Source of the DNA: Botryllus schlosseri
Lineage: Eukaryota
Length of the DNA: 64,000 nucleotides
Assembly: GCA_051294905.1 (NCBI GenBank)
Contig: CM119371.1
Coordinates: 32,862,001 to 32,926,000, forward strand
Direction: 5' to 3'
The notes under the pieces: generated by a model
What the model saw: only the letters and a program-made list of their open reading frames with translations
Databases searched by the model: none
What the model was told of the DNA's origin: nothing
Part shown: positions 24,008 to 64,000 of the stretch, one piece after another
How the letters are laid out: each line of letters opens with the position of its first letter
How positions within the stretch are numbered: position 1 is the first letter of the stretch
Position numbers and translations under genes: made by a program

Positions 24008-24399
24008 TGCGGATCAGTGCATATCAAAAATTACAAGATCAATATGCAACAACATGGAAATGGATATTCCTGATCTCGTGAAACGATTATGAATGCTTCA
24101 ACGACCCTCGCAGGTTTGAAGCGGACAGCGAATCTTTGAGGGAAAATCCCGTCTCCTACGCTATCTCCTACGTGCGCGCGGCGTTGTTACACTGTCAAAG
24201 TATGCCATCGAGAGCTGGCGATGCAACGAATTGCTTTCACAAGATTTTCTTGGCCATACACGTCATTCGAAACGAAGGTAGCAGGTATAAATACCTGCTG
24301 CTGGAAAATGTTACCGATCTACTTTTTAGACTTATGATAGACATGTACATAACCGAATTTCAAGAGCTTGATATCACTCTTTTGAATATCCAACCTTGA
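24008..24399 (+). pseudogene. Orphan gene copy C (frameshifted exon)
   Basis: Acceptor TTCTTCTGTAG. DQCISKITRSICNNMEMDIPDLVKRL / YECFNDPRRFEADSESLRENPVSYAISYVRAALLH...CFHKIFLAI aligns with copy B. Confidence 0.75.
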
Positions 24400-32351: not shown

Positions 32352-33044
32352 TACTATAATTATTCAATCGCCAAACCTGGAAGGCCCATTGTCAAAAAAC
32401 ATACATCAGCAAAATGAGCGAGTTTTTTCGTTGTGGCAAAATTAATTGTACGTACATAATGCCAGCTACACTTTAAATTCCAAGCATTCCAATTTATCAC
32501 AAAATGATTTATTTTCCATCTCTCGAGATGCGTGATAGTGAAGTAAATAGACAAGCGGGAGAGTGAGAATGTTTTCGCGTGTGTGACATGAATCGAGCTC
32601 ATTCCTCATTTTCCTGTTATCTCCTAATATTAAGTCGCGCACTCGACGGTGTGTCACGAGCGGGAATTCAGAGAGCGTTGACCTCATTTGCACTGTTGAG
32701 TAGCGGGTGTCGAGTTGCCTGCGTTGCGAGTTGAGCTACTATATTATTCTTAATAGTTTGTGATGGATTGGATATCGAATTGGTTCGATTTTTGTTAGGA
32801 AGCGGTATAGAACAGAGTCACGTCGCTTTATTGAAAGGTAAGTGTTAAGTATATCCAACACCCACATCATGAGAAGCTATTGGTAGATTCTCTTTATTAA
32901 CGGTATGCCGAATATAGAGTGGTGTCTTCCATTGCAACAGCTTGACTATTATTTTTGTCGTGCAGCATCGCTTTTTGGTTCATTGTAAGCTTTCAGATGC
33001 AGATAGTACAGCTGTTCTTGAATTTTGCCTTATACTGGTAACAG

Positions 33045-39300: not shown

Positions 39301-39596
39301 GTGGCGAGGTAGCGTAAGTGGTATAGTTTCAACAGTTGCAACATCAATGGGTTTCGGGCTCGAGTACGACCGAGGTCGACACCAGAATTCCTTCCTTATT
39401 ATTGGAGGTTTTAGCAAGGCTTCTCTTCGTCATATCATCCGCGCAAACAGTCACTTGAATAAAATGACAGAAGCGGGCCTTCCTTAATGTCGGTAGTAAC
39501 GGAATCACAATAAAGAAAATTGGCCTGGTGATTAAATGACCATTGACGCCGACAAACACCATTAATACCACATACCAGAATCGCAACCAAGTCACA
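39301..39596 (+). mobile_element. Diverged full-length copy of the tRNA-derived SINE
   Basis: GTGGCGAGGTAGCGTAAGTGGTATA...GGGCTCGAGTACGACCGAGGTC...CGACAAACACCAT. Confidence 0.8.
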
Positions 39597-42500
39597 AGGT
39601 TCCGAGTCACAAGTCAATCTCACTTTTGTGGTGTTGACTCGAGTCAAGTCGATTCACTCTGAGTCCAAGTCGTCGAGCAGAGGGTCGAGTCCGAGTCCAT
39701 GTTGACTTTTCACTTTCTTGTTAAAGTCTTTGTGAACCTACTTTTCACAACTCTGCTTGGTGATCTCGAATGCTTTGCATTCATAATAAACTAATTGCCC
39801 TCGCTTTTTCCAGTCTCTAGTCACATTTACAAGTACCAGTACTAATAGACGAATTACCATTAGTGTACCGATTTACTATCCTCGAAATTTGCAATGAAAA
39901 GGTGGTCTTACCAGTCCCAGTCTCGAGTCATATGACTTGGTAAATACGGCTTACCCATCATACTGTATTGTTCTAGTCTCCATTGTCAAGCCACCGCAGT
40001 GGTACAAACCAAATTAATCTTCCTCTTGATAATCAAACGATAAATACTATGGAATTTCTGAAAACGAAAGATTCCGATTTGGCCATTTATTTATTGTTCA
40101 TGCCGACAAAACATTACAAAAAAAAACTTTTTGAACATCGCGCTATCTTTATATGACATGCGATTTATCATAATTGATAATTGCTAGACCTCGAGCACAA
40201 TGCAAACGAAAACCGCCGCCACTATCAGTTAAAGATTTACTCGTTTGGAACTATTTGCGGTACGCAAAGAAAGTATCGCAATTTAAATACTGTATCTGTA
40301 AAATAATATGACTTCCTGCAATCACACTCGGATGGTGAAAGAATAGACCGCAGCTACACGCGTGTTGGCAAGTTCGGATATCATATCTAAATACACGAAA
40401 ACAGACATGTTTCGGGCGATAGAACACTGAACAGTGATCACAGAACAGTTAGACCGCAAGAATTCAAAAGTCTTACGACAATGATATGTACCTTGCTATC
40501 TGCGCGAAAGTAATATTAATCATTGAGAGGACGCCACAGCGCAAACTCAAAACATCATACAATCTTTGCGAAATATGTGTGTCTACGACCTGTCTACGAC
40601 CCGTGACATGCGGATGTGAATATACACCGATGGTGCACGAAATCAGAACCTATTTCAGACTTACACCACGACATATATCATACATAACAGTTTGATCCGA
40701 ATGATAAGTGCACGTGAGGACGTAGGATTTATAACCGCGAATAATTCTGTGTTATGTTCTGTGGTTTCGTTCCGCACCTTTTGGTTTTCGATAAGAGTAT
40801 ATAATATATCAAAGCCAATAGTCTTTACTATATGCACGCGGGTCCGAAGACCTTAGTCGACAAAAGAGCCATATTTACCCGCAATTTTCAATTGTAATTC
40901 CAAAAGAGTCATACATCGATGTCCCTTGTTACATCACAATTGAAAATCTGTGACGTCATGTACACACGATATCAAAGTTAATTTTATGGGATTCGTCGTC
41001 CGCGCCTCATGTTCCGCGTATACACTGTTGCGCCCAAAACAATCAAGCCAGTTACGTTAAATTTGAGCATCCGACACAATGAAAAACGACAGCCATGCAC
41101 TCTCGCTACAGGGCAAGGCATCCTTTTGCAAGCTTCATACTATTAATCTCAATAACACCAGCATATCTCAAAAGCATTGTTGGCACCGGGGAAAATACGT
41201 CGCTTGAAATTGAATGGTAGATTTGCTATTGTTGACCCGTCTGCCGCCGTTATTTTATGGAAAAGATCGTATTGTCTATGTTAATTTTGACGGTGTTCCA
41301 TATTCAGATCAATGAGAGGATTTCATGCGGTATATTTAACACCTCAACAACTTCGTCAAGTTCCAAAGTTCACAGTCAATGATTGGGTAGCAATATTGCT
41401 GTCCAAGGCGAGTATAGATAGGTAAGCGGGAATCTGACATCCATAGCCTATACCGCACAAAAGATTTTATGCAGAAGCCGGCATTGTTATTCATTGATTT
41501 TGAGGGTGTTTCATACTGAGATGGGTGTCAAGATTTCACATTGTGTATCTCGATGATTTCGACTACCATTGTATCAAGTCTCAAGATCAACACTTGATAA
41601 CCACTCAAAATATCAATGAGCATTTTTAATCAGCTGCCTAAAATATGAATTTCATGGTAGATTCGTTGTTTCGAATTGTGCCGAATTAAATGTAGATTTC
41701 AGCCTTAAAATTATCCTCACGGATGATAAAATTAACCCATTCACCATTGAATTCGTGTTATCCTGCAACCATCATTTGTAAATAACATAACAATTATATC
41801 TTCCGACCGTGCTTTTCGCCATTTTTACCGTATTTTGTCGTACAATATGTCTTATCTCCACCGGCTTCGCAAATACCACCTGTAATTTGGCCAACGGAAA
41901 CCCAAAAACGTTGCGTTGCGCTACAGCCTTACATTTTAACGACGATGCGAGCAAGCTGTCTCATAATCGGGGTTTTGGAAAACTGTGTATTTTAAATTTG
42001 TAATTAGGAATGTCAGGTCCAAGGGAGTCCATTTCTCGCGGATTATCCGGGAGACAATGTGGATTTTATTGTCGCGTTGTGATAAAGGCATCGCCAAGTT
42101 TGCCTCTCTCTATGATAAGATTTCAAGACGTTGGATACAGCGAATAATGATGTTGCATGGTAGCCTGAGCGATAGCAACTTTGTTTTTGCAAATATACAA
42201 ATTTTATATCGGGTTCGATTCGACGGATTAGATTTGTTCGATAAATAGCCTGGTAAAAGGGGTTACCGTCATTATAGAAAAAACACTATTGTGCTGGACT
42301 GGTAAATGAGCAACTATCAGTCGGCAATATTTGACATAAATTATTACATTTTGAAAAGGGAATTCAAGCCCCGAGTACCCCCTAGATAAGCCACATTTTG
42401 TCCCTGCAAAGACTTGTCTCAGCTACAACAACCATAATGATTCCGATCATCATGAAAAGTTACCAACCCGTGCTATACACCTATACGGCTTACGCCTATA

Positions 42501-42944
42501 TACAAACTATTTATTTTAGATACCCTTTCCTGACGAATATGCATTGAGTTATTGGAATATTCGGGTGGGGTAAGTTTTGAGTTGGAATTATTTTTTAACG
42601 CAGCACAGCATGTTAATTTTATTTTAAGAGAAAGTTCAAGTGGGAAGCGGTTCTGGAAATTGATTGCAAAGCTCCTACGCGAAATTGATCGCGATATTGA
42701 ATATTTTCTTAAGCATTGCTTCGTAATTAACTGTTGTCCGCTATACTTCGTCGGAGACGTCAAGCCAGAAGGCCCGCGTTCCTACCCAGGTTTTGATTTA
42801 AATATTAGCATAAGAGGTGTTTTGGTAAGGTTGCATTTAAAAAAAATGGTGTTTTAAAACACTTTGTTTAAAACATTCCGAAAAAAATGCCATTTAGCAA
42901 AAATGGAACACTGTCGTAACACAGTGAAAATTAACGTGGATTTT

Positions 42945-43500
42945 GCGACAACGCAACAGCTCCCTTCAACACGTAAAGTCGTGCTTCCTGCACTTCAACA
43001 AAGTAATGTTGTGTACGAATTTAAGTGCCACTGTGATTGTCGTTACGTATGAAGAACATCCAGGCGTTTGCAGGAACGCATAAACCAGCATATCCCTAGA
43101 TTTATCAGATCGCGTGCATCACGCTCGGTGAAAAGCTCACCCTCGACTCATTCCCTTAAGTTTGACGCTGATCGTTCGAAGGCCATAAATTCTGCCATTG
43201 GCAAACATCTGTTGGATAATCCCACCTGTGCGCAAATTATGGAGACGACAGATTTCGTGTCATCGGTATGTATCAAAATACATCGGCCGAAGCTTTACCA
43301 ACAAAAGAAGTTCTTGCGCCATCTTAAAATAGTACATTGAACGCTCTCTTATCCTAGATCTCATTTCATACTGGTGAAGTCATATTTCGAGATACGATTG
43401 TTGATATACAATGTTCTTTCCAATTGCATACTAGTTGCTGACGATTACCCCTGACGAGTGTCAGCCGAAAATATTCGGGTTCATTTCAATATGAATTAAC
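42945..43500 (+). mobile_element. Penelope-like element 3' remnant (GIY-YIG endonuclease end plus pLTR)
   Basis: QQSNVVYEFKCHCDCRYV*RTSRRLQERINQHIP...SAIGKHLLDNPTCA: PLE GIY-YIG with CCHH motif; hammerhead downstream. Confidence 0.85.
43447..43480 (+). ncRNA. Minimal type I hammerhead ribozyme (stem II degenerate)
   Basis: ACCC-CTGACGA-GTGTCAGCC-GAA-AATATT-C-GGGT: core CUGANGA/GAAA/UC, stem I ACCC:GGGT, palindromic stem III AATATT. Confidence 0.75.
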
Positions 43501-44948
43501 TATTCAAAATAAGTTCAATCTCGAAATCTTACATCCAGATGCTCGCGACTTGAAAAGACTTTCGTCCTTTGAAGATCACGCACTTTTGATCTCGGCCATG
43601 CGTGACGGGGGCGTCATAATGGTCCCTTGCCGCAACTTTATAATATATGCTGACAATGTTTGCAACATGTTCCATGAATGCAGTGTATAATAATTCCTGT
43701 AAAATTAATTGCGCGTACTTTTAGATCGCCCATTGCCGCTTAAAATACTCCCGTCACGCTAGCTCGGGATATTTTCCACAAAATGTTTCGAACTAGGTAT
43801 TTTATTTTTCAGCGTACAGCGAGTCGAAATCTCGTAAACAACTTTTGAGAATTAGAGCTCTTTGTACAAGATGCTTGAAAGCTTTTGGGTCAAAATGATT
43901 AAAAAACATATACGTGTATCAAAAATACATGAAAAAGGTTCACAGTGCAGAACCTACTAAGGTTCGTTTGGGAAGATGAACCTCTAAATATCTGAGGTTC
44001 ACACACAGAACGCGAAGGTGAACCTCACGTTCATACCATCCCTACGAAATATCATTCAAAGTATGTGCAATCCTCAAGATGTTCGAAACTCATGCAACTA
44101 ATAAGCTGTCTTTGTCTTCGCATCATTGCTTCTGCATGAAATAAAAATTGTACTAGGAAAATGCATCAGATCTTCGCATGCAAAAAGCCCAGATGTTATA
44201 CGTCGAACGATGTTCGCAATAACAATTAGGAAATTTCTTATTTTTTTAAAGGAATAAATTAATACAACGCCTCGTCTAGAAATGTGGTAGCAAGTATCAG
44301 CAACTAACGCGAAATGCAGATAAAGGGACATTTTGACATTTTTGAGCGTCCTCGGTGGGCCATGCACCTTCCCTGAGAAAAGAGGACAAATCCTCCTACA
44401 TATGGTAATCCTACTCTCCATAATATCACACAGCAACACGAGACAACATGCGGGCAGATAGCGCTTTAATATCGCCGACACTCATAATTTTAATCACAGT
44501 CACGACATATAATCAAATCCCGCCGTGGTGATACAACAATAGCGCAGAACATTTTAGCAAGTTCAAAGTCATTCTGATTTTGTTGCAAGGATCGTTTTAG
44601 TTCCTTATTTATTGGAAAGCGCCTGCTGCGTCTTGACCGCTAAGTAATCGTCAACCAAGGTTTTTTCACGTCTCTCTCTATCTCTCCCTCTCTCTCTCCC
44701 TCTCCTCTCTCTCTTTGTTTGCCGTGTCTACTGAAATTAGTCCAGAAAAAATCTTATTGCGTGAGCAATTATGTCCACACTCCATTTCAAAGTATTCGCT
44801 GACGCTATTTGCGAGCTGTTGCAATGCTTGGACGTAGATTGTGTTCAATACTGAACCTCGAAATAAGTGAGCACTGTTGTGGAATATTTACAGTCAAACG
44901 TACTGGACCATTGACTTTATATATTTCAAAGAGTTTATTTGTTTACAT

Positions 44949-46734
44949 CAGTGTTTCTTAACCTTTTAGCCAGCGCCCCCAGGGGCGATTTGGATTTTGA
45001 AGGGGCAGAAACGCTCAGGGGCGATAAGACGGCGCTGGGCTCAAGGGGGCGATATGGGGGCGCTGAAGAAAAGTTGAGTAGCAGTAGAGGATTTAGTCGG
45101 ACATGTGATTATAAAGTAAAACAACAGTTCTATATATGCCCGAGTTCTCATTGCAAATTAACATTCGACACATTCGGGTTATTTTCCAGAAAATATTTCT
45201 GACTAGGTATTTCATCGCGCAGCGAACAGTGTGTCGAAATCGAAGAAAGAGGCACTGCACTACTTTTAACCCTTTTAATTAGGGGGGGGTCAGTTTTTGC
45301 AGAACTGACCATCACTTTTCAAATTCATACCGTGACCTCCCCAGGACTTCAATCTGAGCTGTTCCAGTTTAAAAGTGGCCGGAGTATATCCTTATACCGT
45401 TTCCGCCCTCGATCGACACCCCATGCCATGTCTAGAGTTTTTTATAAGACTAAATAAAAAAACTTATTTTCTGAAAAATCTCTTTCTCTCTCTCATTTTT
45501 CCAGACTGACCCCCAGGGTAGCGTCCGAGAGTCGAAGATGATGCCGCAGTGCGTTGCCACCGTTGCCTGGTTTCAAATAAGCCGTCAACCATAACCGTAA
45601 GCCTCGCGGCTCGCCAGATATCGAAAAATCAAAAATACATGAAAAATTTACATATGGGAGTGGTCAGTGAGTGGTCATAATGGTCAAATTCAAGATCAAT
45701 ACCGAATCGGACCCCTTACGCCCAGTTAATGGCATGAAACAACGTGGTGTGCTTTCTCCTGTCATATCCCACCATTTGCAGGCATAGTAAACCAGTTTAT
45801 GACTCATATCCCGTCGCGAACTTGGACTTGAACTTGACTATGTTCTTGAAAATCACCGAAGCGTTACCACAATTAACAAACCCCCTCACAAAACTCCCCA
45901 GAACAAGGTTTGATGTTCCAAACGGTGATAAATTACACATAATACCGTACAAGTCGACTTATGATGTTCTGGCAGAATTCTGACTATATTTCCCACTCGA
46001 AAAATATCTGGAAATTTTAGACATGGGTATTTTCAGCCGAACTCTTCATGTAAGATCGTCGGTATTCGAAAATTGTCATGCCCTATACCTTCAAATTAGG
46101 TATCATATAAATCGGAAGATAGCAGGCTTCCCTAGAAACCAAAAGCAGTCCGCTACGACATATATATTTGGAGATATTGAGAGATGAACTTGAACTTGAA
46201 CTGAACGCCAGTGACCCCCCCCCCTTTAAAAGGGTTAAGAGTGAGAGAGAGATGAGAGCCCTTTGAAGCTTTTTGGTCTAAAACATTGCCTGAATATATT
46301 TGTATTAGAGAGCTACAAAATTAAATCTTCAGCATATTTCTTCATCGTATCTTAAAAGTTAATACTGTTCAGTGTTTTGACCCGCAAGCTTACATGAACG
46401 TTATATAATATTGGCTGCTTTGTTTGGAATACATTCATGTTAAAGGTAATCGACCATCAGATGGTATGAGCCCGTTCCCGATGGTTGGTATAACAACTTT
46501 GATTTGATTCCGAATATAGCTCATACAAATATAATTGCGGTATTTGGTCAAGTGCTGGTCCTCTAGCACGATTCAAGCTATATCCGACAGTAAAGTCCCA
46601 ACCTGAAAAGACCGACAGGACTTCGAACTCTTGCCATATGCTTTTACTACTGTCTCTAATACATGGGAAGGGGGGCGCTAGACCCAGGCAAGTTTTGAAA
46701 AGGGGCGCTGCAAGAGATAGGTTAAGAACCACTG
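44949..46734. mobile_element. hAT-Charlie-like element containing a piggyBac MITE
   Basis: TIR CAGTGTTTCTTAACCT / AGGTTAAGAACCACTG. TSD GTTTACAT/GTTTACGT. GGGGCG subterminal repeats. Confidence 0.85.
45270..46234. mobile_element. Non-autonomous piggyBac element
   Basis: TTAA|CCCTTTTAA..GGGGGGGGTCA ... TGACCCCCCCCCCTTTAAAAGGG|TTAA. Confidence 0.9.
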
Positions 46735-46749
46735 GTTTACGTTGTACTG

Positions 46750-47488
46750 CAGGGGTTCTTAAAGTCCGGTTACCGATCCAAGCATGGATCGCAAATTTTT
46801 TTTGTGCGATATCCTGCGTTTGGTTTATTCCTACACACGATCACTGTATTAAGTTGACCCACCGGTAATAAGCGCGTCACGCAGAAAAGTTTACTACAAT
46901 GACGTGATACTGAAAATCTGCCGTCCTTTGTATTACAGAAATTGGTTTAATACCATGATAAGATTCGTCGGACATTGGCATGTATAGAAATCTCTAACTT
47001 AACTGGGTACTACTCGGGGAAGGTAAAAGGAAGGAAATCGCGCGGTGGTACCTCCCGCAGCCGATATGTCTTGGTACGCATAATAATACACGGAAACAAT
47101 TCGACTTTATTCGCAATTGTGAAAGAGAAGGATATCCGTAGTACTTCTTAACGCCGCCTGAGACCGTTGGGCTGCTTTTGTCTGGGTGTGTACAACGGTA
47201 TTTAAAGACCGACCTTTCCTCCCGCGCCGGGACAGTTGAAGGCATGAATTTTGGCCTACATGGGGTTGCGGTCAAATGCTGTGTTTAAACGCAGGATAAA
47301 TGCGATAAAACCATGGCTAAGAATATTGGTGCCAAAACCTTCAATATTGATACGCCCGGTCTTCGAAATGGTCGGCGTCGAATACTCTCATATTATAACG
47401 GCATTCATTTCGATGCGTGATGTTTGGGTCGCGATATGAAATATAACCAAGAGTTGGGTCGAGATCTAAAAAATTTTAAGAACCCCTG
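46750..47488. mobile_element. hAT-Charlie-like MITE
   Basis: TIR CAGGGGTTCTTAAA / TTTAAGAACCCCTG. TSD TTGTACTG/TTGTAGTG. Confidence 0.9.
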
Positions 47489-47606
47489 TTGTAGTGAGTA
47501 CTGTATGCATTAGCGTAACCCAGATGCAAAAGGAAGAGACATCGTGGATAAATTATCACATAGTGGCTACAAGTAGCGTCATAATGGACAAATGTGGTGC
47601 ATTAAG

Positions 47607-47686
47607 GTATCGCGGAACCAGGAGTTGAAAGAGATATTCTGTCATCAGACTTGGAAACAAAGCTAAAAACTTCGTTTGGCGCACCA
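47607..47686 (+). CDS. Tentative exon (GIAEPGVERDILSSDLETKLKTSFGAP) of the GIY-YIG-like gene
   Basis: Donor CCA|GTATGT in phase 0 matches the next exon; the acceptor is weak. Confidence 0.35.
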
Positions 47687-47914
47687 GTATGTTCTCATCA
47701 CGGCGGATCGATATGTTTTTGCAATCAGTTACGGAAAATCGTAGGGGACATACGACCCAATGATGATAACGACTGTATAACGGGTTACACGGGACATAGG
47801 CCTATTTCCCCGTAGAAGAAGGGATAGGAGTTTATCAATTCAGATTCAATTAAATAAAAAATCTATAGGACGTCAACCGTTACGTTTTTCTTTTGGAATA
47901 TTTATTCAACGTAG

Positions 47915-48090
47915 ACATTTCTTTCAGTTGGAAACAAAAATATATCATTAGACAATTTTATCGATTCGGACCTCGATCAAGATCATTATGTGATGCAACT
48001 ATTAAAGAAAAGTGATGAGGCTCTGACTGCTGCTATAAATCTCATCAATCCTGAGCTTATCATACCAATTGGCTGGTATGCTTGGAATAA
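47915..48090 (+). CDS. Exon of spliced gene (TFLSVGNKNISLDNFIDSDLDQDHYVMQLLKKSDEALTAAINLINPELIIPIGWYAWN)
   Basis: Acceptor ..CAACGTAG, donor AA|GTAGGT; phase 2 joins the next exon as Lys. Confidence 0.6.
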
Positions 48091-48737
48091 GTAGGTTCAA
48101 CTATTTTCAAGCATTCTTTCACCAGAGGTCGAGAACGAAACCAGCTACGGTTTTGGCAAAAAATAAATAATCTGTTGCTGACAAATAACAAACAGTTTGT
48201 ATTTGTGAAATTTGAACCATCAAACCTATTTCACAGCTCGTACTTCTATGTCCTAATCTACTGACAATCCATCGTTATAGTATATTTAGCATAGCCGCTT
48301 TGTCATACACACTCGGATATTTGAAATTATCATTCTGTATCTTATATGCTATTTCAGTTCGGATTTTATTTTGGTGCCGTTTGTTCATTCTTTGTTTATT
48401 TATTTGTTAAGAGGTTTGTTAAGATGTTCCTGCACGTCTCCACTTTTGTGACCATGTTATGTCGAGTCACCATTCTGCAACGTGTTTATTTTATTTGTTA
48501 TATTTCCTTCATCTGTTTTTTTTCTCTAGTATCTGACTATGACGGGTGACAATACAAAATTGTTTTTCTTCTGTAAAATCATTCCGTCCACAGTATAGCA
48601 GTGACATGATATCAAGAGCATTGATTTAGCTATGGATCCAACAACCGTTTTTAGAGATTTTGGTTCGGATCCAATCGTTTTCTTCACGATATCCTCGAAA
48701 TGGATTTGGACTTGGACTTGGAAATGGACATCTAAAC

Positions 48738-49321
48738 AAGTGGTTCTCAAACTTTTTTTTAGATGATAGTGAGATTTTCGGCGCTCCATTATTGTCACAG
48801 GAAACATATTATACTCATATTATTACTCACTGAATGCAATGAATACATGAAAATCCTTTTTAAATGTCTTCAGTATAGCCAACACATATTGAAAATATGC
48901 GGTGACATAAAACGACTTCGATACTTGCGAAATTGACAATATGTTTGACCAATTCAGCTACCACAGAAATTATTTTCTTTGTGCACAACAATGACGAAGG
49001 CTAACATAATAAAATATGTGATGAAAAAAAACTTGGCCTGATTGAAAGAAACGGGTTGCATTTTCAAGTTCATCGTAATAAATTGATTAATAAACAGGTA
49101 AACATCTCTGACATCTGCAAAATAGTTTTTAAACGCATTACAGTGATTGACGGTAGCAAGAAACAAATGAGTTATTTAAATGTAATTAACTGAACGTTCT
49201 AAAATTTCAGTGCTCTAAACTCCTGTGTACGTTTCACCTCCAATCGCACGTTGTTTTTTTCATCCTCTGAACCATGTGATGACTCTACATGGGGCGATGT
49301 CATCCAATTTGGGAACCACTT
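48738..49321. mobile_element. Degenerate hAT-Charlie-like MITE (intronic)
   Basis: AGTGGTTCTCAAA / TTTGGGAACCACT ends; TSD not recognised. Confidence 0.6.
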
Positions 49322-49341
49322 CATTTAGTTTGTCTTGACAG

Positions 49342-49488
49342 AGTCAAAGGCCCGGAAATCAATCGAGCTATTGATATCGGGAGTTACATTCCGCACCCTT
49401 CTGGCAAGAATATTGAAGATGAGAAAAAGTGGATGGACAGTGCAATGAGGATATTGACTGACAATGGTGTCGATGAAATGCTAGGAAA
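49342..49488 (+). CDS. Exon of spliced gene (VKGPEINRAIDIGSYIPHPSGKNIEDEKKWMDSAMRILTDNGVDEMLG)
   Basis: Acceptor GTTTGTCTTGACAG, donor AA|GTATGT, 147 bp, phase 2-2, open frame. Confidence 0.7.
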
Positions 49489-49805
49489 GTATGTTTATTC
49501 TCTCAACATAACAGCACCGAACTAGAGAATACTTTACAACGATATGCAACTGATAGAAGATGTCAAATGGCTTTTAACTACCATTTAGCACAGTGGTTCT
49601 CAAATTCGACCCCAGAGACCCCCTGGCTACGCCCCTGCCATTATTTATATTACTCTATTTATAAGCGTACGTCGGTGGCTTCCAGTTGAAAATGTCTGAG
49701 ATATCTTGGCAGACTCCTCGAGAATCATTATAAAGAGAGATGTCGCAAGCTGAACACATGTTAACACCAACCTGGAACCAATAAGTCGATCACCAACGGT
49801 TAAAT

Positions 49806-50092
49806 CAGTGGTTCCCAACCTGGGGAGGGTTCGTGAAAGCATCTGAAGAGGGGCGCGAAGAAGCGGTCTAATGAAGAAAAAAAAACGCTCCGCGCGATTT
49901 ACCTCCAATTCACGTTTGTTTCTCTGTATATAGACCGAATTTCATATTTTTGAATTCTCTCATCAACAGTCATAATAACCTTCCATGCCATCAAACCATC
50001 GGTTGGATTTTGTGATATGACGATAAGGGGTGCGCGAAATTTTTCACTATCATAAAGGGGGGCGTGTCTAAAAAAAACGTCGAGAACCACTG
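49806..50092. mobile_element. hAT-Charlie-like MITE (intronic)
   Basis: CAGTGGTTCCCAAC / GTCGAGAACCACTG. TSD GGTTAAAT/GCTTAAAT. Confidence 0.85.
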
Positions 50093-50378
50093 GCTTAAAT
50101 GACAATAATAACTATGACTGCAAGGAAAACGTTTAATAACAGGCTGTTACTGGTAGTAAAATACCCAATTGTAATTCACAAATTATAAAATCTCTACGTG
50201 ATTGAAAAAACGGCCTTATATTATTGATCATCGTTAGCAAATTATGTTGGTAATCACCATTATATCCAGCAAATAGAAATCATGTTGACCAGTGTTACGA
50301 TTCCACACTTCTCGAACCACTGCCATCATGATAAGAAAGCTCTTCAAACAACCAATACTAACACTATTCTTTATTAAG

Positions 50379-50642
50379 AAGTAAGAGAAAAGAAGACGGA
50401 TGGTCTGAATGGCAAACTATCGCTAGGCCAAGGTGGAAAAAGTTACCTGATGGTTACGAGCCAATGCCTGACTTCTACAATGGAATGCGAGCGACTCTCA
50501 CGGAAATGCGGAAGTGGTGGGCGCATTTTGATAATGGAGTATACGAGCTTGCAGTACCTGGACTCGGATCAGTTTATCTTGGAATGACCTCCACGAGAAA
50601 TAAACGGCAGTCACTCATAAGCAAAGTACGAGCTCATACCAG
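50379..50642 (+). CDS. Exon encoding a GIY-YIG-like nuclease motif
   Basis: TACTAAC branch point plus TTCTTTATTAAG acceptor, donor AG|GTTAGT, phase 2-2. SKRKEDGWSEWQTIARPRW...DNGVYELAVPGLGSVYLGMT...LISKVRAHT. Confidence 0.7.
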
Positions 50643-51291
50643 GTTAGTAGTAAATCCATATCTACGGACGGACATTGCCTAGAATTGACACCACCGAGAA
50701 TTATATTACCGAGAACTAGATATATATCTCAGTTTTACCACCGAATATTCACACGCAGGGATGGTTTGAATTTTCGATAAATTAGAGCTTCGCGCTTGCA
50801 AACGAAGTTTGATAGATTCTAACCTGTAAGCCTCCTAGACTCCAGAGTCTATTCTAGAGGAATGAAAGACAGTTTTGATAATGTCAGCATCTCAACATCA
50901 GAATTGCTTGAATTTCAACTAAGTATCTGTAACTGTGTCACGGTGGCATGTTCAGCACAAAACTAGGATGCACCCTGCATCGTCGACAATGGTAGGCCTA
51001 CTAATTTAGATGATTTTGCTTAAAATACCACGTCCGTCTGCCCGTGGATAATTGTAGGCCTAATGAATCCTTTTCATCAGGGCAGCGCCACGGACTTGGT
51101 GAGGAAACGGGTTGGGTTTAGCTAGAATTCTAGATCGTGAGCCTGTATTCCAGATTTAACATATTCTCCATAGAGATGCCTCAAACAGCGACTAATGTAA
51201 CATGTAATGCATCTTGCACCCTCTGCTTTGTTTGCTCGTTCTACAAATCGGTAGGATTTCATGCTATAAATTTTCGGCGCGCCTTGCCTAG

Positions 51292-51385
51292 TGGTTTAAT
51301 ACATCGTTGGCTGGATATTTGGATACAACAAAACGAGCGAATCGAAAGACACGCTAGATGGGATTTCACACCAGACATCATATAG
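51292..51385 (+). CDS. Tentative next exon (GLIHRWLDIWIQQNERIERHARWDFTPDII)
   Basis: Acceptor CCTTGCCTAG in matching phase 2; ends at TAG or an overlapping GTATGA donor. Confidence 0.4.
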
Positions 51386-53465
51386 TATGAATACATATAG
51401 TAGTGATCGCCACAGATTATTAGCGTCTTGCCTTTGTTTCTTTGAGGTTTTCAGTGTTCAACTGTATCTCAAAAATCAGACATGTGCTGCTAATTATCAC
51501 GAGGACATGTTTTCTATATTTCATTTGTCTGTTCTTGAGTCCACCATCATCACTATGAGTAAACCTAGTCTATGGCAACAGAAAGAATTTGTGTATCATT
51601 TGAAAATCATAATAAATATCAATATATTATTCAAATGTGTTATGATGTTATGTACTCCTAAGCGTCTCTTTATTATTGGGCTGTACTGATATTTCACGTT
51701 CATCACGGTGGAGTATTGATTTTATCGTAACGAAATTATTTGCATAGTCAGAATCGATGGTCCTCTTTGAATGGAGCTCTGTTATGCATTCCTGGCAAAA
51801 CTGTCTCATCTTTTAACTTTACAACACCGAGGCGGAACGATTGGGGGACTTGAAGATACTCCTATGTACGATTGGAGATCGTTTTTCTGAACGTAGGCCT
51901 ACCTATTGAACTGTGCGATCATGATGATTCTCCTGCAGATGTTTTGAAAATAGGGCATGACCGACTTTTGTAATACGCTACATGGCCATACCACAGCAAT
52001 GGTTGTTCAACCCGTCGACTGCGTGCCACTTTTGGCCAACGAGAAGGTGCTAAGGCGCAATTCTGAGCCCCTTCCTCCCCAAGCTTGGTAGGGTCGGTAT
52101 GATTAGTCCTAACGTCCATCAGCTCTACCAGTAAATCTGATGACGTGTAGGCTATGCAATATGAAAGTAACGATATTATTGACCAAATTAGTTCAATAAC
52201 TTGGAAAGATTTTTTCGCTCGACGCGACTACTAAATAAGTGCAAGTTGAATAATCATAATACTAATATTAGCGTTTTTTCGTATTTGTCGGTCGAAACGC
52301 AACAGTGTGATACCGATTGCTTTATTGTAAATGAGTTTGTAAATATTTGGGGTAGAGTTGGCATTTCAGAAGGACGGGGTTTCGATTTGAAACCCAACCG
52401 CGCCATCGTACTACAAAACATACGACGTACAATCACATCAATCATAATTTGACTGCTTTTCGAGTCATTGATTATGGAATTGTGGATTATTGTTTCGAGA
52501 AATCCAGATGCGATCAATTCACGGTGGTCCGAGCTCGGCTCTAATTACTATAGGCAATGCTGTACGCTCTTCAACAGGCACGAGTGCTTGTTGTAATAAC
52601 GCACCATGACTTTGATACGAAATGTAAATGCCGGAATGCATTCAGCAACCGTAAATGATTTTTGGAATGATTTATTGACAGATGTTGTGATGGTGTAGCC
52701 CTTAGCATACCGGCCAGTTCAAATTATCTAATGGCGTAGAACAGATGTTCCCAAACTTTTGTGACTTGTGGCAAACTAGAAAAATTATAAAATACACGCG
52801 GTATACGCTATCACAATTATGCGATGACTATATTTATTCATACGAACATATTATACGACTGAAACGATTTTAGCTTATTGACAAACATACCAACATTTTG
52901 CGTCAATTCCAAGCAGTCTCACTCGTTTACAGCTTTTAATTTCAGCCAAAACCACAAAGTCTGTGCACATAGTCATGTAGAAGCGCAATGTTCAATGCAT
53001 TACACATGGCAATAAAATTATGATTGCTTTTGCACCTATCATGATATAAGAATTGGAAGAAAACAGCCATAACTCATCCATTTTTATTGAAAGAGCGTTT
53101 GAAAAACGGGGCGTTTCGTAAATGAATGAGCTGTTCTTCTGCATAAAGATTGGCGGATTCACTGCTTTCAAGTAGACCAATTACAAATCTAAAGTTATGA
53201 ACATCAAATCCAGAGAAATAGATGTAAGTTGAAATCCAGGCAGTGTGCCTATGTTTTGCGGAGCAATGTTTTTTTTATGAGTTGACTAATTGGGAGCTTG
53301 AACCGAATTGAAGACTTTCTTCGGCACATAGGAGCCCAATTATTACGCGACAATTAGCCTACCAAACTATTCGGCAATGCCATGATTTGATCCATCGCAA
53401 TGTTCACATGTGCTTATTTATCAGCTATGAAACAGTTGAAACGCTTTCAAGACGCATATGCCAGC

Positions 53466-53770
53466 CTGCACACTAGGGATGGTGTGAATCTCTGAAAGGT
53501 TCAGGTTATTTTGAACGCGAACCTTTTTGAAAGGTTCTGTGTGAACGCGAACGCGAACATCATGACGTCAAGTGACGTCATATTGCTAATTCCAACCCTA
53601 CATTTCAGTGAAGTGCCATCCTTCACACTAGGGATGGTGTGAACCTCTGAAAGGTTCAGGTTATTTTGAACGCGAACCTTTTTGAAAGGTTCTGTGTGAA
53701 CGCGAACGCGAAAATCATGACGTCACGTGACGTCATATTGCTAATTCCAACCCTACATTTCAGTGAAGTG
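53466..53770. repeat. 155-bp tandem duplication of a hAT-like end (TAGGGATGG...)
   Basis: Two near-identical units starting 53466 and 53621. A matching opposite-type end ...CATACCATCCCTA with GAACC/GGTTC motifs lies at ~43930-44044. Confidence 0.85.
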
Positions 53771-53979
53771 ACAGCCAATATTAAAGTACAAGCACGATAT
53801 CTAGCGCAGACTCGGGCCACATAAAATGCCACAATGCTGAAGTATATATTGACGTTTTAACGTCCCCAAATGCATCAACTGGGGCAATCAAATGATATAA
53901 TAAACCCATAAAATCAATATCTTTCGTCGCTTTGCTAACAATTTCGACGAGGACTTGCAAGGGAATATAAGCGTACGCC

Positions 53980-56900
53980 AGTAGTTAAGTAGATCTCTCG
54001 TGAGGTGGCAGGGGCTCTTATGGGCGGGGTGGTGACCTGCCGCGAAACCCGGGGTGATGACCCCACCCTTTTAGACCCCCTATGTGGTGGTGACCTGCCA
54101 TTGTTTCTTATGGGCGCGGTGATGATACCACCCTTTCGGGTATAGGCTGCGGCGATGATATACCTTGAAAACTCGTGTTGGTGACCCCACCCTTTCGGTA
54201 TAGGCTGCGGTGATGACCTGCCGTCTCGTGTTCGAGGGAATCCCAACGTTTACGGTGAATGCGACTTCAATATATCGTTATTCTTATGGCCGCGGCGGTG
54301 ATTCGTACTTTCGGGTATAGACTGCGGGTGGCATGTCGTACTTTCAACAAAAAAGGCGTGAAAATAGTTTGCAAAATCTAGGAATAACTAGCAAGGTAAT
54401 ATTTGGTAATTAGTTTACCAGAGAGCCGGCGTAGACGGCGATTCCAATACCAACAATAGCCGCGTTCACATATTAACACTCCAAATAGGTGTGAAATAGT
54501 TTGCAAACCCTGCGATCGCTGACAAGATAATGTCTCAGACATACGCGACTTGATGTTACAGGCATATCGATCACTCACGCGGTGAAATTTTCGTAAGCAG
54601 TTTGGGACAGAGCTTGATTTCACTCGTAAGATTTAATAAGTAACGAATAACAGACCGCCAGGGTCGGTAACTTGAATAGCGACAAATTGCCACTTATTTC
54701 CGCTCTAACCCTAATCCTTTGTGAAGTGAACGCTTATTCAAAAAGGTGTGAAATATTGGTAAAATCTCGCGACCGCTCACAAGATAATACCTAAGACATA
54801 ACCATCGCTCGCGACTCGCTGTTACATACACGCCGATCGTTGACAATGTAATATTTTGGTAATTGGTTTGCCACATAACCGGCGTAGACGGTGATACCAA
54901 CAATAGCCGCGTTCACAAACTAACACTTCAAAAAGGTGTGAAATAGGTTGCAAACCCCGCGATCGCTGACAAGATATTGTCTCGGACATAACCATCTTTC
55001 GCGACTTGCTGTTACATACATTCCAAACACTCACAAGATACTATTTTGGTACTTAATTTGTCACAGAACCGGATTTCGCTGGTAAAATTTAATAAGTAAC
55101 GAATAACAGAGCCGGCGTAGACGGTGATTCGAATACCGACAAATTTTCACTTATTTCTGTCCCAACCCTAATCCTCTGTGAAGTTGACGCTTATTCAAAA
55201 AGGTGTGAAATAATTGTAAAAATCCTACGTCGCTGACACGATAATGCATCAAACATAGCGATCTAGTTATAGTACGGTGTCGGAATCCATTCGCGAGATG
55301 TTCTAGAGGTAAATTGAGATAATCCGAAACCGAATATTTTGACTTTGGCGTAGTGTGAATTGAAATAGGATTGACAAACATGACTACCAACTTTCCCACA
55401 GTCCCGTTTCGATATTATACACACATTGATTTGAAACAAGTAATGTAACATTGCAACTCTATTCACGGCCCCGCTTTCCGTTTGTCAAAGAGATATTTTA
55501 ACATCTTACCATACTGAAAAGAATTATTCACAACAATAACAATTGTTAAAAATCTAGTTTTCACTTACTTGATTATATCACTACAACTCATAAATTTGAA
55601 TTAATTCATCCTGGTTGTATTCGTATGATCGGTCTTTTTTTTTATTCGATTGTAAAGGTCGTTACTATTCTGAAGACAAAGTATTTACTAATCGGTGCAT
55701 ACACGATTCGACTTGAACATATTATATTTTGAGTATACGAGATTTCAATGTCTGAACAATAACTGAGAAATAATTTATCACAATTAAATCCGTAAAAGAT
55801 ATTTGAATGTCAGCAACTCGGTAAGGTCATAGTTACTACCACATTACCTAATTTACCCGACCAACTCGTCATGATCATTCCCGAAATCAACACAAACATG
55901 ACTACTGACTTGAGTCAACCACAAAACAGCATCAAGTTTTAAATCCGCTTGTAGCTTACGGCTTATTTGAATGCGGGTTATGTTTTGTTGTAATTGAGTG
56001 TACGGAAATAGTCTTACGTCTCGACATCTCACCATCTTGCCATCAACAAAAGAGTAAAATACACAAACCTTGTCAAGTCAATCCGTTTGTAACTCACCGA
56101 ACCAAAGCAAAAAGTGTCCATACGAAAAGTAGACAAGACTACGCAAGTAATCACTACAACCCACAAACATATCAAGTTCGGTTTTAGGCATATACCACCA
56201 ACTCGTCTTTTTTGTTCAACTGTAAAAGTCGTTACTATTTTGCAAGACAAAGTAATGACTACTCGATAGATTTTGTAAGACAAAAGTAACTACTACTCGA
56301 TGCAGGCGCCTTGAGATTAACCTAACATGTTTGAGTATACAAGATTTGAAAGTCTGGCCATCGTAGTTGAGAATTCATTTCTTACAATCGAACGTAGGTG
56401 TTATATCGAAAATTATCATGATGTAAACATAAGGATTGTCACATCGATTTGACATATGGGGTTTTGTAATGGTCTATCATGACTTGATTACTAATTTATT
56501 TGTGTTAATTAGACCCGCCGATGTGGTGAAGGTTATTATGACAGCAACAAACTTTTCACTATCATGGCTATTAACATATTGAGTTGTAAAACTATACGTG
56601 TCTGAAATGTTCTTGATTGACAAATCATTCCACCTTGGTACAAATCACTCTGGGTATCGCGGATATCAGAAAATACTTTACAAATGTAATCGTTTCAGTT
56701 ACCAAGACTAAAGATGAAACAACAATTCCGTTTGCTGGCTAACAACCGGGCAATACTTTATTGTCAGAATCTGTGACGGTGAATTGAAACATACTCATCT
56801 TACACAGTACGAGTAAATCACTTTGGACTCCGGGCGGCGTCGTTTAATCCGTGTTAAACTCTGTTCACACTCTCTGTCGAATGTGTGAAATGTAAAACAT

Positions 56901-59900
56901 TACGAGGTTACACTCTAAGACTTTGATCAACAGAGAAACAATTTTGAATATCTTTACTGGATGGATCCTATTCAACCGACCTTGGTTAATACAAAACTCA
57001 TAACAATAATAAAATCGAAGTATGTGCTACACTGAAATCTAGAAAAAATGTGTTTGTATTGTTGTTCATAGTAGTGATATCGATTTGAACCTGCGGAATA
57101 ATTGTCATCATCTAACCAAACTAATGAAAGTCGTTGTCAATTTGTATGATGTTCACTGAATGCATACTAGTACTATTTGTGCAACACACACGAGCAGAGA
57201 AATTGGAAATTTTCCCATTGCCATTTGTCAAAGTAAATGTCGTCACAATACTCAGTCACTAAAAGACCATATACTTGTATGTGATTGAATCACCAACAAT
57301 TAACTCGCTAAATCAAATCGTAAGGCAATTTCACGCACTCAGCGGATATTACACAACGTCGCTTTATCGGTGTGGGTCGTTTTTTCTAAATACAAATCAT
57401 ATCTGTCCAGTAGAAAACAATTTTCACGCACTTGGGTAATGAAACCAGTGTGCAATATCAATACAAGATATTTTCGTGACACAAAAAATAATCAACTTAC
57501 TCGATATTCTCGTAAAACGAAACTGTACACAGGTTTCATGTTTTTTGTATGACACGGAATTAATACCGATCGAAGTAACTGTGTTGGAAATGACTTTCAT
57601 ACAAATACACTCTATGTGGTTAACATTCTCATCGATTCTATTGTGATCAATGTATACTATATGTATTCTGGATTCATTTCGATATGGCTAAACATACAAC
57701 CTCGACAGATACGAATTGTCACACACTCAACTAATATCATACCAAATAGTTATTTACAACAACCAAGACACAGAAAATTTGTTTTGGCCGTTTCGATTTT
57801 ATTACTGGAGGTACTCATCACTTCGCTTAATACAATCTAGATTTAAACCCCATCGAACCTTTGGTGTCTATCGTTTTGCTGGATACGAATTATGTTAGTC
57901 TGTTGGTGTCTATCGTTTTGCTAGATACGAATTATGTTAGTCTAACAGTAAACAATTTTCACAATCTTGGGTTATGAATTCAATGTGTTGGCGGTCATTC
58001 ATTATTTTGTTTGTATCAACTAGTTACTTTGTAGGGTATGAATGAGCACCCTCCCACAACTCTTACAAAAGTACGAAGGATATTTACATCACACAAAGTA
58101 GTCGACTTTACTTCATATCCTCACACTACGAAACCAAATGGTTGTGTAGACTCTACAAACTTTTTTACACGAATGGTCACACATCTAAATATTAAAATAA
58201 TCCAACACACAACTATAGTACTTACAGAAATATCATAGTTCTTGTAACAAAGGTGTTTATCGTAAGTCCTACACAGCCATGATATCCGTCCGAGTTTGAC
58301 TTTTAGAAAACATTATACCGACATCGCGACATCTTTCAAAATTAAAACCACTGTGACTGCTTCAGAGACCTACCAATGATATTGCAGTAATACAGTTACT
58401 TCCACAAAAGAGTATGTATTCGACTTACTTACCACAAATCTAACGCACAAAACAATTTACTTTACTAACGAGAAGCGCCGAGCCTCACATCAAAACAACT
58501 AGAAAGTGGAACTATATTAAAAAACGTCGCTAACCTTTGTGCACCAGCTGTAAATCACACAAGCAACATGTTTCAAGATTCTGGTTATTGAAAAACGTTA
58601 AAGTGTTTCTACGCCAAGTCGTTATGTTGACGAAAGCGTATACCATGATCGATTTGCATTCGTTGGTCACAAACTGTCACTACTCTAAATAATTAATTTT
58701 CACTCAAACACAAAAGCATACTTGTCACCAATCGTTTTCATCAAGCACGAGTTCAAGAAGCTTACTTACTACGACATGAATTGTTATTTTTATGTTGTGT
58801 AAATAGGTAATAATTTATTTTAGTAACACTACATAAACATCATCGAGTTGTGCTAATAGATTTACATGTGGTTTTAATCGAAGTACACAGCACGGTCTAA
58901 TGTAGATTCATCTCTATTGTACAGCAACTCGGTAATCGAAATGCATTAACATTTAAACAACGATCTTGGTTCGTCACGCGAAAAATATCTTTACTGTCGC
59001 AACACTCTGATACTCTGCACAAGATGTGTAAATCCTTTTCACACTCATAATTATACACTAACGGGATACCGACGTCAAGCAACAACGTTTAACAACATCA
59101 CTGACACTGAACATACGATACCTACCCAAGTAAAAATATCATTTTCACCAGGAGGTCAGCCGTTACTTGTGTACAATTACCATTTTCCCTTGGGAGTTTA
59201 GCGTTACCCGAGTAACAAAACCATTTTCACTTGGAAATATATGTTTCCCCTCAACAACAAACGTTTTTTCACTTGGAAATATATTTTTTCCCTGGGTAAC
59301 AAACCCCTTTTCACTTGGAAATATATTTTTACCCTGGATAACAAACCTTTTTCACTTGGAAATATATTTTTTCTCTTGGTAACAAACCTTTTTCACTTGG
59401 AAATATATTTTTTCTCTGGGTAACAAACCTTTTTCACTGAGCAACAAACCCTTTTCTCCCCAGGCAACAAACCCTTTTCGTTTGGAAAACTATCATTTAC
59501 CTGAGTACCAATACCATTTTCGTTTTGAAAACTGACAACTACACCGGTCAATTTGATATTTTTTGTATATTGTTACAACAGACAGTGACAAAATATACAC
59601 CAACAACGACTCCGATACATTTGTGTAATCGCATATTCACTTGTTCTGGTGCATCCCATCAAAACCCTCAGTTACCCACATGTAATGCGCTGTACATCGA
59701 TGTGAATGCTTTGGAAAATTGGGCAATAGGCTTCGATAGTTCTGTGATGTCCGGGTTCGTGCTTTGGATTTTCCAGAGTCAAAATGTCTGAATAAAACAC
59801 CTCCTTGACGATGGTTGGTATGTGGATAACGGTGTTCGGAAAACGGTTGGATTTATGTCACCCATCGCGATAACAACTCCAGATCGAGTTTTCCTCCCGC

Positions 59901-62900: not shown

Positions 62901-64000
62901 GTGTGATTTACAGCTGGTGCACAAAGGTTAGCGACGTTTTTTAATATAGTTCCACTTTCTAGTTGTTTTGATGTGAGGCTCGGCGCTTCTCGTTAGTAAA
63001 GTAAATTGTTTTGTGCGTTAGATTTGTGGTAAGTAAGTCGAATACATACTCTTTTGTGGAAGTAACTGTATTACTGCAATATCATTGGTAGGTCTCTGAA
63101 GCAGTCACAGTGGTTTTAATTTTGAAAGATGTCGCGATGTCGGTATAATGTTTTCTAAAAGTCAAACTCGGACGGATATCATGGCTGTGTAGGACTTACG
63201 ATAAACACCTTTGTTACAAGAACTATGATATTTCTGTAAGTACTATAGTTGTGTGTTGGATTATTTTAATATTTAGATGTGTGACCATTCGTGTAAAAAA
63301 GTTTGTAGAGTCTACACAACCATTTGGTTTCGTAGTGTGAGGATATGAAGTAAAGTCGACTACTTTGTGTGATGTAAATATCCTTCGTACTTTTGTAAGA
63401 GTTGTGGGAGGGTGCTCATTCATACCCTACAAAGTAACTAGTTGATACAAACAAAATAATGAATGACCGCCAACACATTGAATTCATAACCCAAGATTGT
63501 GAAAATTGTTTACTGTTAGACTAACATAATTCGTATCTAGCAAAACGATAGACACCAACAGACTAACATAATTCGTATCCAGCAAAACGATAGACACCAA
63601 AGGTTCGATGGGGTTTAAATCTAGATTGTATTAAGCGAAGTGATGAGTACCTCCAGTAATAAAATCGAAACGGCCAAAACAAATTTTCTGTGTCTTGGTT
63701 GTTGTAAATAACTATTTGGTATGATATTAGTTGAGTGTGTGACAATTCGTATCTGTCGAGGTTGTATGTTTAGCCATATCGAAATGAATCCAGAATACAT
63801 ATAGTATACATTGATCACAATAGAATCGATGAGAATGTTAACCACATAGAGTGTATTTGTATGAAAGTCATTTCCAACACAGTTACTTCGATCGGTATTA
63901 ATTCCGTGTCATACAAAAAACATGAAACCTGTGTACAGTTTCGTTTTACGAGAATATCGAGTAAGTTGATTATTTTTTGTGTCACGAAAATATCTTGTAT
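53980..64000. mobile_element. Element 2: second giant fold-back Polinton/Maverick-like element (right end beyond window)
   Basis: Starts AGTAGTTAAGTAGATCTCTCGTGA, homologous to the element 1 terminus and collinear with it over ~6 kb. 61197-64000 is the reverse complement of 57461-60264 (mirror ORF coordinates all sum to 121461). Spacer 60265-61196. Confidence 0.85.
59210..59530. repeat. ~40-bp minisatellite in element 2 left arm (mirror at 61931-62251)
   Basis: Same CTTGGAAATATATTTTTT..GGTAACAAACC unit as 10700-11250, but a shorter array. Confidence 0.9.

What the first reader, a model, noticed from the sequence alone, without database searches (positions are those of the whole stretch)
47607..51385. 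Cryptic spliced gene encoding a GIY-YIG-like nuclease
Seen: exons 47915-48090, 49342-49488 and 50379-50642 join in frame via GT-AG sites, with a TACTAAC branch point before the last and MITEs confined to introns. The product has GVY-x10-YLG (50536-50583) preceded by WSEW and followed by LISKVRAH. Known: GIY-x9-11-YIG then LxxRxxxH defines GIY-YIG nucleases. The WSxW...GVYEL...VYLG layout recalls plant EFFECTOR OF TRANSCRIPTION/HRT-type domains. Inference: an uncharacterised animal GIY-YIG protein, with Lys at the usual Arg position, which the ORF track shows only as fragments.
Basis: partly seen in the sequence, partly recalled or inferred. Interest (0 to 1): 0.7.

Follow-up and report, generated by a model that had tools for sequence, protein, structure and literature searches.

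The report
Plant-type nuclease gene with swapped halves
Three exons in what is probably an invertebrate genome encode a distant relative of a DNA-nicking domain best known from plants, but its back half appears to come before its front half and to lack the key cutting residue, so it may be part of a doubled gene, a rearranged non-cutting protein or a decaying copy.

Summary
The three exons, GT-AG sites, branch point and motifs are as described. Exon 3 has no direct database hit. A profile built from ET-type GIY-YIG proteins (Pfam PF19239) fetched here ranks it first of 3,375 window frames (E 1.8e-4). The family folds like T4 endonuclease II (Z 10.7). [quoted passage not shown]

New here: exon 1 ends in YAWN, the family's C-terminal signature and the only YAWN in 105,334 window residues. 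The domain's back half thus seems to lie upstream of its front half, with Asn in the catalytic Glu column. No downstream back-half exon beat the null, but repeats fill most of the window from 53.9 kb.

Readings: middle of a tandem two-domain protein (0.37), circularly permuted dead nuclease (0.28), decaying gene (0.22). RNA reads were too sparse to show junctions. New variant of a known family; moderate interest.

The parts
47577..47606 (+). candidate 5' micro-exon (ATG at 47592, phase-0 donor at 47607 that fits the 47915 acceptor); speculative
   Evidence: sequence only; no reads
47915..48090 (+). exon 1: degenerate C-terminal half of an ET-type GIY-YIG domain (alternative acceptor at 47928)
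   Evidence: weak profile support (5.5 bits; 5 of 3,000 shuffles as high)
48047..48049 (+). Asn codon in the column of the catalytic Glu (a Glu follows two residues later, out of register)
   Evidence: MAFFT and HMM alignments, low confidence; coordinates
48077..48088 (+). YAWN, the family's C-terminal signature; if the donor at 48091 is not used, a stop follows one codon later
   Evidence: only YAWN in 105,334 residues of six-frame segments
49342..49488 (+). exon 2: phase 2-2 linker exon, 49 codons, purine-rich (0.62)
   Evidence: no family hit
49806..50092 (.). hAT-type MITE in intron 2 with 8-bp target-site duplication (one mismatch)
50356..50362 (+). TACTAAC branch-point consensus before exon 3
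50379..50642 (+). exon 3: N-terminal half of an ET-type (PF19239) GIY-YIG domain: WSxW strand, GIY-YIG hairpin, arginine helix
   Evidence: rank 1 of 3,375 frames, E 1.8e-4, profile positions 12-102 of 105; hhalign prob. 61%, 24 columns
50536..50583 (+). GVY-x10-YLG hairpin; its Y, E, G and following T columns are invariant in the 22-row alignment
50623..50637 (+). Lys in the catalytic Arg column (50623-50625) and His in the second Tyr/His column (50635-50637)
50643..50682 (+). strong donor at 50643; if unused, the frame runs 13 more codons to a stop at 50680-50682
46750..47488 (.). non-autonomous hAT-type element upstream of exon 1 (8-bp target duplication, one mismatch)

Best explanation
The three exons are the middle of a gene made by tandem duplication of an ET-type (PF19239) GIY-YIG unit. 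They encode the back half of domain 1 (exon 1), a linker (exon 2) and the front half of domain 2 (exon 3). The outer exons are too diverged to recognise or lie beyond the repeats. Domain 1 has lost the metal-binding Glu and would only bind or position DNA. Domain 2 keeps the general-base Tyr, the YxG motif, Lys for Arg and His for Tyr, and could nick one strand if its Glu helix is in an unseen exon. The chain would then act like a fused GIY-YIG pair with one dead and one possibly live site.

Shown: exon sequence, homology of exon 3, and the family fold. Weakly shown: homology of exon 1. Inferred: splicing, the outer exons, any activity.
For: Exon 3 ranks 1 of 3,375 frames (E 1.8e-4; next 0.2) with a profile of 19 members built without it. 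All 9 of 9 members tested pass the PF19239 cut-off. The family model has pLDDT 87 and matches T4 EndoII at Z 10.7, rmsd 2.6, 116 aligned.

YAWN ends exon 1: about 2e-4 by chance in 195 residues. The Y.WN pattern was set beforehand. The strongest donor of the three follows exon 3, which suggests a further exon. Only about 3.3 kb of non-repeat sequence follows it before repeats fill most of the window from about 53.9 kb.

The family is prone to tandem copies: 5 contigs among the 80 loci listed carry two stand-alone copies. The exons stay open despite 18-34% identity of exon 3 to its relatives, which suggests selection (inference).
Against: No upstream N-half exon was found by profile or by motif in 24500-47914. 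No downstream C-half exon beat the null (best 23.4 bits of 221 candidates, versus 25.7 among 1,254 reverse-strand controls), so two halves must both be invisible. The exon-3 donor is phase 2 but exon 1's acceptors are phase 0 or 1, unlike a simple copy of one intron. Exon 1 is not among the listed hits of the C-half profile, and hhalign gives it only 6 columns, prob. 17%. No junction reads were displayed. No two-domain relative was retrieved (5 hits, up to 399 aa).
Confidence: 0.37

Rival explanations
1. Circularly permuted single domain. The whole protein is about 200-215 aa: a short 5' exon, back half, linker, front half. The halves fold into one GIY-YIG domain opened between the arginine helix and the next helix. 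With Asn for Glu and Lys for Arg it binds nucleic acid but does not cut. It would have arisen by gene duplication and loss of both outer ends.
For: The halves are complementary: re-ordered in a script, exon 3 then exon 1 align colinearly over profile positions 14-152 of 163. The break falls at the junction of helices 90-100 and 102-113 of the family model, where other members carry insertions. No outer halves were found. A phase-compatible ATG micro-exon exists. Duplication then truncation is described as a highly probable route to permutation (PMC13552848, one passage). In T4 EndoII, Glu-to-Ala abolishes catalysis but keeps binding (PMC2764454, passages).
Against: The re-ordered score gains only 0.7-1.9 bits over exon 3 alone. 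It is above the null median but below the 99th percentile for all three profiles (15.3 vs 17.6; 14.9 vs 16.4; 13.9 vs 15.4). The strong donor after exon 3 suggests more coding sequence. Natural permutations are rarer than tandem domains (own knowledge). The spliced product could not be folded with these tools.
Confidence: 0.28
2. Decaying gene or remains of a tandem array. Exon 1 is the last exon of one copy (it reads YAWNK-stop if unspliced), exons 2-3 are the start of the next, and transposon insertions removed the rest. No working protein is made.
For: Unspliced exon 1 stops right after the motif. The region is dense in hAT, LINE and other repeats. RNA depth over the two repeat-poor bins holding exon 1 and the start of exon 2 is at most 1.2 in four runs. 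Catalytic columns are altered. Tandem arrays are common in the family.
Against: There is no stop or frameshift in 195 codons despite great divergence from relatives. Exon 1's donor is in phase with exon 2, which separate genes would not need. One single-cell run shows one-strand depth (0 vs 1.01; 0.01 vs 1.22) in those two bins, in the direction expected for + strand RNA; this is only a handful of reads in one run.
Confidence: 0.22
3. One reading: one ordinary GIY-YIG domain starting in exon 3 and finished by a downstream exon, with exons 1-2 an unrelated N-terminal region and YAWN a coincidence. It would be a plain nickase with Lys for Arg.
For: Exon 3 homology; strong donor; exon 1's support beyond the motif is weak.
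Against: YAWN is unique in the window and lies in the same frame (about 2e-4). No downstream half was found.
Confidence: 0.08
4. Chance: the exons are not coding and the motifs are accidental.
For: No direct hit in Pfam, PHROGs, NCBIfam, PDB sequences or the protein collections. The single-sequence model has pLDDT 41. The family to test was chosen from recall after seeing the motif.
Against: E 1.8e-4 among all window frames; score above all 2,000 shuffles; two separate family signatures in one spliced frame.
Confidence: 0.05

Closest known systems
Pfam PF19239 GIY_YIG_domain, stand-alone ~165-aa members (metagenome contigs, e.g. L098, L051, L058)
   Same: WSxW strand, GxYE and VYxGxT hairpin with a 5-7 residue loop before the arginine helix, and terminal YAWN.
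   Different: Those are single open frames in normal order with Arg and Glu. Here the gene is spliced, exon 3 is 18-34% identical, the halves are in swapped order, and the Glu column holds Asn. From recall they resemble stony-coral genes; their origin was not tested.
Plant EFFECTOR OF TRANSCRIPTION (ET1/ET2, HRT)
   Same: Same Pfam domain (a plant-type member, L112, scores 192.5 bits). Exon 3 ranks first, weakly, with a plant profile (E 0.71). The ET2 domain is reported to nick single strands (PMC6585611, passages).
   Different: No Cys-His ET repeats in the three exons. The paper calls ET genes exclusive to plants. Order of halves and catalytic residues differ.
T4 endonuclease II (PDB 2wsh) and the GIY-YIG superfamily (UvrC, I-TevI, Hpy188I, Eco29kI)
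   Same: Best structural match to the family model (Z 10.7, rmsd 2.6, 116 aligned). GIY Tyr, YIG Tyr/Gly and the Tyr/His shuttle position are kept in exon 3.
   Different: The match is for a relative (L098), not for this protein. Arg is Lys and no Glu is in register. A UvrC profile ranks exon 3 only 105th.
Animal GIY-YIG proteins: SLX1, ANKLE1/LEM-3, Penelope endonucleases
   Same: Same superfamily; ANKLE1 and SLX1 are given as the only two in mammals (PMC4888674, abstract).
   Different: No ankyrin, LEM, RING or reverse-transcriptase domain in these exons; the signature here is PF19239-type.

Membership tests
GIY-YIG superfamily | GIY and YIG motifs on a beta-hairpin (PMC1564403; PMC3045582) | tested here: met
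   GVY-x10-YLG; aligned to the family's invariant columns; hairpin also in the low-confidence single-sequence model
GIY-YIG superfamily | invariant Arg on the arginine helix | tested here: not met
   Lys at 50623-50625; family column R 28, K 1, gap 1 of 30
GIY-YIG superfamily | second Tyr or His of the proton shuttle | tested here: met
   His at 50635-50637; column Y 28, H 1, gap 1 of 30; His is allowed per PMC3045582
GIY-YIG superfamily | metal-binding Glu on a helix C-terminal to the Arg | tested here: inconclusive
   no downstream exon found but little unique sequence was available; the upstream half has Asn in that column
GIY-YIG superfamily | GIY-YIG fold of this protein | tested here: inconclusive
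   exon 3 alone: pLDDT 41, best Z 2.4; family member: Z 10.7; the spliced product could not be submitted
GIY-YIG superfamily | DNA nicking or cleavage | not testable with these tools
   needs an assay
Pfam PF19239 (ET-type GIY_YIG_domain) | score above the Pfam cut-off of 21.4 bits | tested here: inconclusive
   single exons give no PF19239 hit in hmmscan, but each is under 60% of the model; a profile of fetched members gives exon 3 19.4 bits, E 1.8e-4; the spliced product was not scanned against Pfam
Pfam PF19239 (ET-type GIY_YIG_domain) | C-terminal E-x-x-L-L-x-x-[YF]DYAWN motif after the hairpin | tested here: not met
   YAWN is present but upstream of the hairpin and without the Glu in register; the motif is invariant in my set by construction
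Plant ET/HRT proteins | Cys-His ET repeats and plant host (PMC6585611) | tested here: not met
   no Cys in the 195-residue frame; other exons unknown
UvrC-type GIY-YIG | match to a UvrC-domain profile | tested here: not met
   rank 105 of 3,375, 0.7 bits, with a profile of 33 domains
Penelope-like retroelement endonuclease | reverse transcriptase in the same frame | tested here: not met
   no RT hit in the exons; no long + strand ORF nearby

The most novel reading that the evidence does not exclude
A naturally circularly permuted, catalytically dead ET-type GIY-YIG domain encoded by a spliced animal gene, formed by tandem duplication and loss of the outer exons, and acting as a nucleic-acid-binding protein.
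Probability: 0.28. Interest if true: 0.65.

Novelty: new variant of a known kind. Interest (0 to 1): 0.45.

Why it matters
The ET-type GIY-YIG domain is discussed in the papers I found only as part of plant regulators. The 97 metagenome and 2 viral matches to its motif show it is wider, and this gene would extend it to a spliced, very divergent, probably animal lineage. If the swapped order is the real protein, it is a clean exon-level example of circular permutation by duplication and truncation, and a nuclease turned binder. If it is a tandem protein, it pairs a dead and a possibly live site in one chain. If it is a pseudogene it matters little.

Tried and rejected
Direct searches with exon 3 found nothing usable:
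- Pfam, PHROGs, NCBIfam: no GIY-YIG hit.
- PDB sequences: only E 0.4-1.2 matches to a MORC3 CW finger.
- Word-indexed protein searches, long and near lengths: 0 of 9 and 0 of 1 candidates.
- phmmer over 1.84 billion representatives: 3 hits, all repeat proteins summed over many weak stretches, rejected.
- Viral and metagenome contigs: none. Genome contigs: one 33-residue match in an unrelated large protein, rejected. Phages: E of 2 or more only.
- ESM Atlas: GIY-YIG-clan clusters at 0.80-0.85, below the 0.9 mark, a lead only.
- Single-sequence fold: pLDDT 41, no Z of 5 or more.

Other tests:
- Family search with alignment A2 returned only 5 proteins, no close relative of this gene.
- PF19239 in 401 genomes of one bacterial phylum: 4 weak partial matches; three gave UvrC-like domains.
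- Sequencing-run search: no RNA holder listed. Four of 24 listed runs were laid, 3-13% of each read; 15 of 27 joints were shown, none at the proposed junctions. Inconclusive.
- Complex prediction of exon-3 and exon-1 peptides: no verdict (score 0.01; my alignment was not used). Not evidence either way.
- Back-splicing of exon 3 onto exon 1 as a way to restore the normal order: rejected, phases do not match.
- A generic splice-site matrix was too crude to find further exons.
- No whole genome is held for the window, so paralogues and sequence beyond 64000 were not examined.
- Earlier findings by sequence, by place and by two other word searches: none.
Full report
Observation. The three exons have the stated coordinates and GT-AG ends and join into one open frame of 195 codons. 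The branch point, the motifs and the intronic hAT MITE are as described. Exons 2 and 3 are both phase 2-2 and more purine-rich than the introns (0.62 and 0.59 versus 0.47-0.51). Exon 1 begins directly after an in-frame stop, so a further 5' exon is needed. A candidate micro-exon with ATG at 47592 and a phase-0 donor at 47607 fits, on sequence alone. The host is a eukaryote with spliceosomal introns, LINEs and hAT elements, and has single-cell RNA runs; that it is an invertebrate animal is my inference.

Expression. Four of 24 listed runs were laid on 39500-58000, reading 3-13% of each. Nearly all reads were partial matches to repeats. None of the 15 joints displayed (of 27) is a proposed junction. 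In one single-cell run the bins holding exon 1 and the start of exon 2 have depth on one strand only (0 vs 1.01 and 0.01 vs 1.22), in the direction expected for + strand RNA; this is a handful of reads. Splicing is neither shown nor refuted.

Finding the family. Direct searches with exon 3 failed. The Atlas gave only sub-threshold GIY-YIG leads. I then scanned for a short C-terminal motif that I recalled from ET-type proteins, which gave 2 viral and 97 metagenome matches. Their frames include plant-type ET exons and many stand-alone ~165-aa genes. All 9 of 9 tested pass the cut-off of Pfam PF19239. Because the set was chosen by that motif, invariance of its Glu and YAWN is by construction. The N-terminal half was not selected on, so the exon-3 test is independent of that choice. 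For the profiles I kept 33 rows with at least 90 residues before the motif and a GIY-like motif, or 19 hand-picked diverse rows; shorter and exon-only rows were dropped.

Exon 3. A profile of the N-half of the 19 members, built without exon 3, ranks it 1 of 3,375 six-frame segments of the window (19.4 bits, E 1.8e-4; next E 0.2), over positions 12-102 of 105. A plant-only profile of 16 rows also ranks it first, weakly (E 0.71), and a UvrC profile ranks it 105th. The spliced product scores 13.4 bits against at most 6.0 in 2,000 shuffles. Profile-profile support is modest (prob. 61%, 24 columns). A family member folds confidently (pLDDT 87). Its best structural matches are T4 EndoII (Z 10.7, rmsd 2.6, 116 aligned), then UvrC, 9u75, I-TevI, a plant glutaredoxin N-domain, Eco29kI and Hpy188I; Foldseek agrees at weak E-values. 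Exon 3 alone gives no usable model. By PMC3045582 (passages) the GIY Tyr is the general base, a second Tyr or His shuttles the proton, Arg is invariant and Glu anchors the metal. Exon 3 keeps the Tyr, YxG and His and has Lys for Arg, as does 1 of 30 family rows.

Exon 1. It ends in YAWN, the family's terminal signature and the only YAWN in 105,334 residues of window frames; chance in 195 residues is about 2e-4. Against the C-half profile it scores 5.5 bits, matched by 5 of 3,000 shuffles, almost all of it from the motif. It was not among the listed hits of the window-wide C-half search, and hhalign aligns only 6 columns. Placed after exon 3 in a script, it aligns colinearly to profile position 152 of 163, with Asn in the Glu column and Leu in the invariant linker-strand Arg column. 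The score gain is small and below the 99th percentile of the nulls. So exon 1 is probably, not certainly, a degenerate back half. The point where exon 3 ends and exon 1 begins is the junction of two helices in the family model, a site of insertions in other members.

Missing halves. None of 221 candidate downstream exons beat reverse-strand controls. Motif scans found no convincing back half in 50643-54000 and no front half in 24500-47914. Repeats fill most of the window from about 53.9 kb and no genome is held, so an exon further on cannot be excluded.

How it most likely works. A duplicated ET-type unit explains the order back half, linker, front half. I put 0.37 on a tandem two-domain protein with unseen outer exons (one dead site, one possibly nicking). 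These odds are judgement, not computed. Earlier unchecked notes of this scan report a permuted GIY-YIG family (e1-2149819) and a double PF19239-like viral nuclease (e1-5650248) in other genomes; they are leads only and were not tested here.

Compared with what is known. It is built like a GIY-YIG protein of the PF19239 kind. It fails the invariant-Arg test, has no Glu in register and lacks ET repeats in the exons seen, so I do not file it as an active nuclease or as an ET protein. PMC6585611 (passages) calls ET genes plant-exclusive. PMC1564403 (passages) defines the superfamily and has no occurrence of 'HRT'. PMC4888674 (abstract) names ANKLE1 and SLX1 as the only mammalian members. PMC2764454 (passages) shows that loss of the Glu stops catalysis but not binding. 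PMC13552848 (one passage) has no mention of GIY. PMC8715426 and PMC8876498 (passages) added nothing. Nine literature searches (listings only unless named above) showed no description of animal PF19239 genes or of a permuted one. The library lacks most subscription papers, and no supplements were examined. From recall, public databases already hold uncharacterised animal members, so the family's presence in animals is probably not new in itself.

Verdict. Observation confirmed; interpretation partly supported; new variant of a known kind; interest 0.45. The swapped order is the feature worth testing, and one full-length cDNA would settle it.

Noticed in passing
window 13868-19712 (-): LINE with gag-like ORF, APE endonuclease, reverse transcriptase and RNase H, broken into several frames.
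   Followed up: partly
window 57461-60264 and 61197-64000: Inverted repeat of 2,804 bp at 100% identity, part of a repeat family also at about 5.7-13.8 kb and 19.7-22.2 kb; a palindromic element or an assembly artefact.
   Followed up: no
window 42960-43320 (+): Broken frame that from recall resembles a Penelope-type GIY-YIG endonuclease remnant; no relevant Pfam hit; many partly matching RNA reads lie nearby.
   Followed up: partly
window 22747-23475 and 24082-24399 (+): Two similar-looking helical ORFs of unknown family, no Pfam hit.
   Followed up: no
window 32757-32838 and about 36749-36885 (+): Exon-like open stretches with good splice signals; from recall SAM-like and nucleotidyltransferase-like; no relevant Pfam support.
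   Followed up: partly
window 50670-50701: RNA reads in three of four runs show this 32-nt stretch repeated head to tail with a few changes; probably a repeat from elsewhere.
   Followed up: no
L043/L044, L061/L062, L071/L072, L077/L078, L103/L104: Stand-alone PF19239 genes in tandem on the same contigs; 9 loci checked have 20-35% coding density, so they look eukaryotic.
   Followed up: partly
L120:1-375; L093:118-1182 (like P0007): A natural member with Lys in the Arg column (L120), and a member fused to CCHC zinc knuckles (L093, P0007).
   Followed up: no
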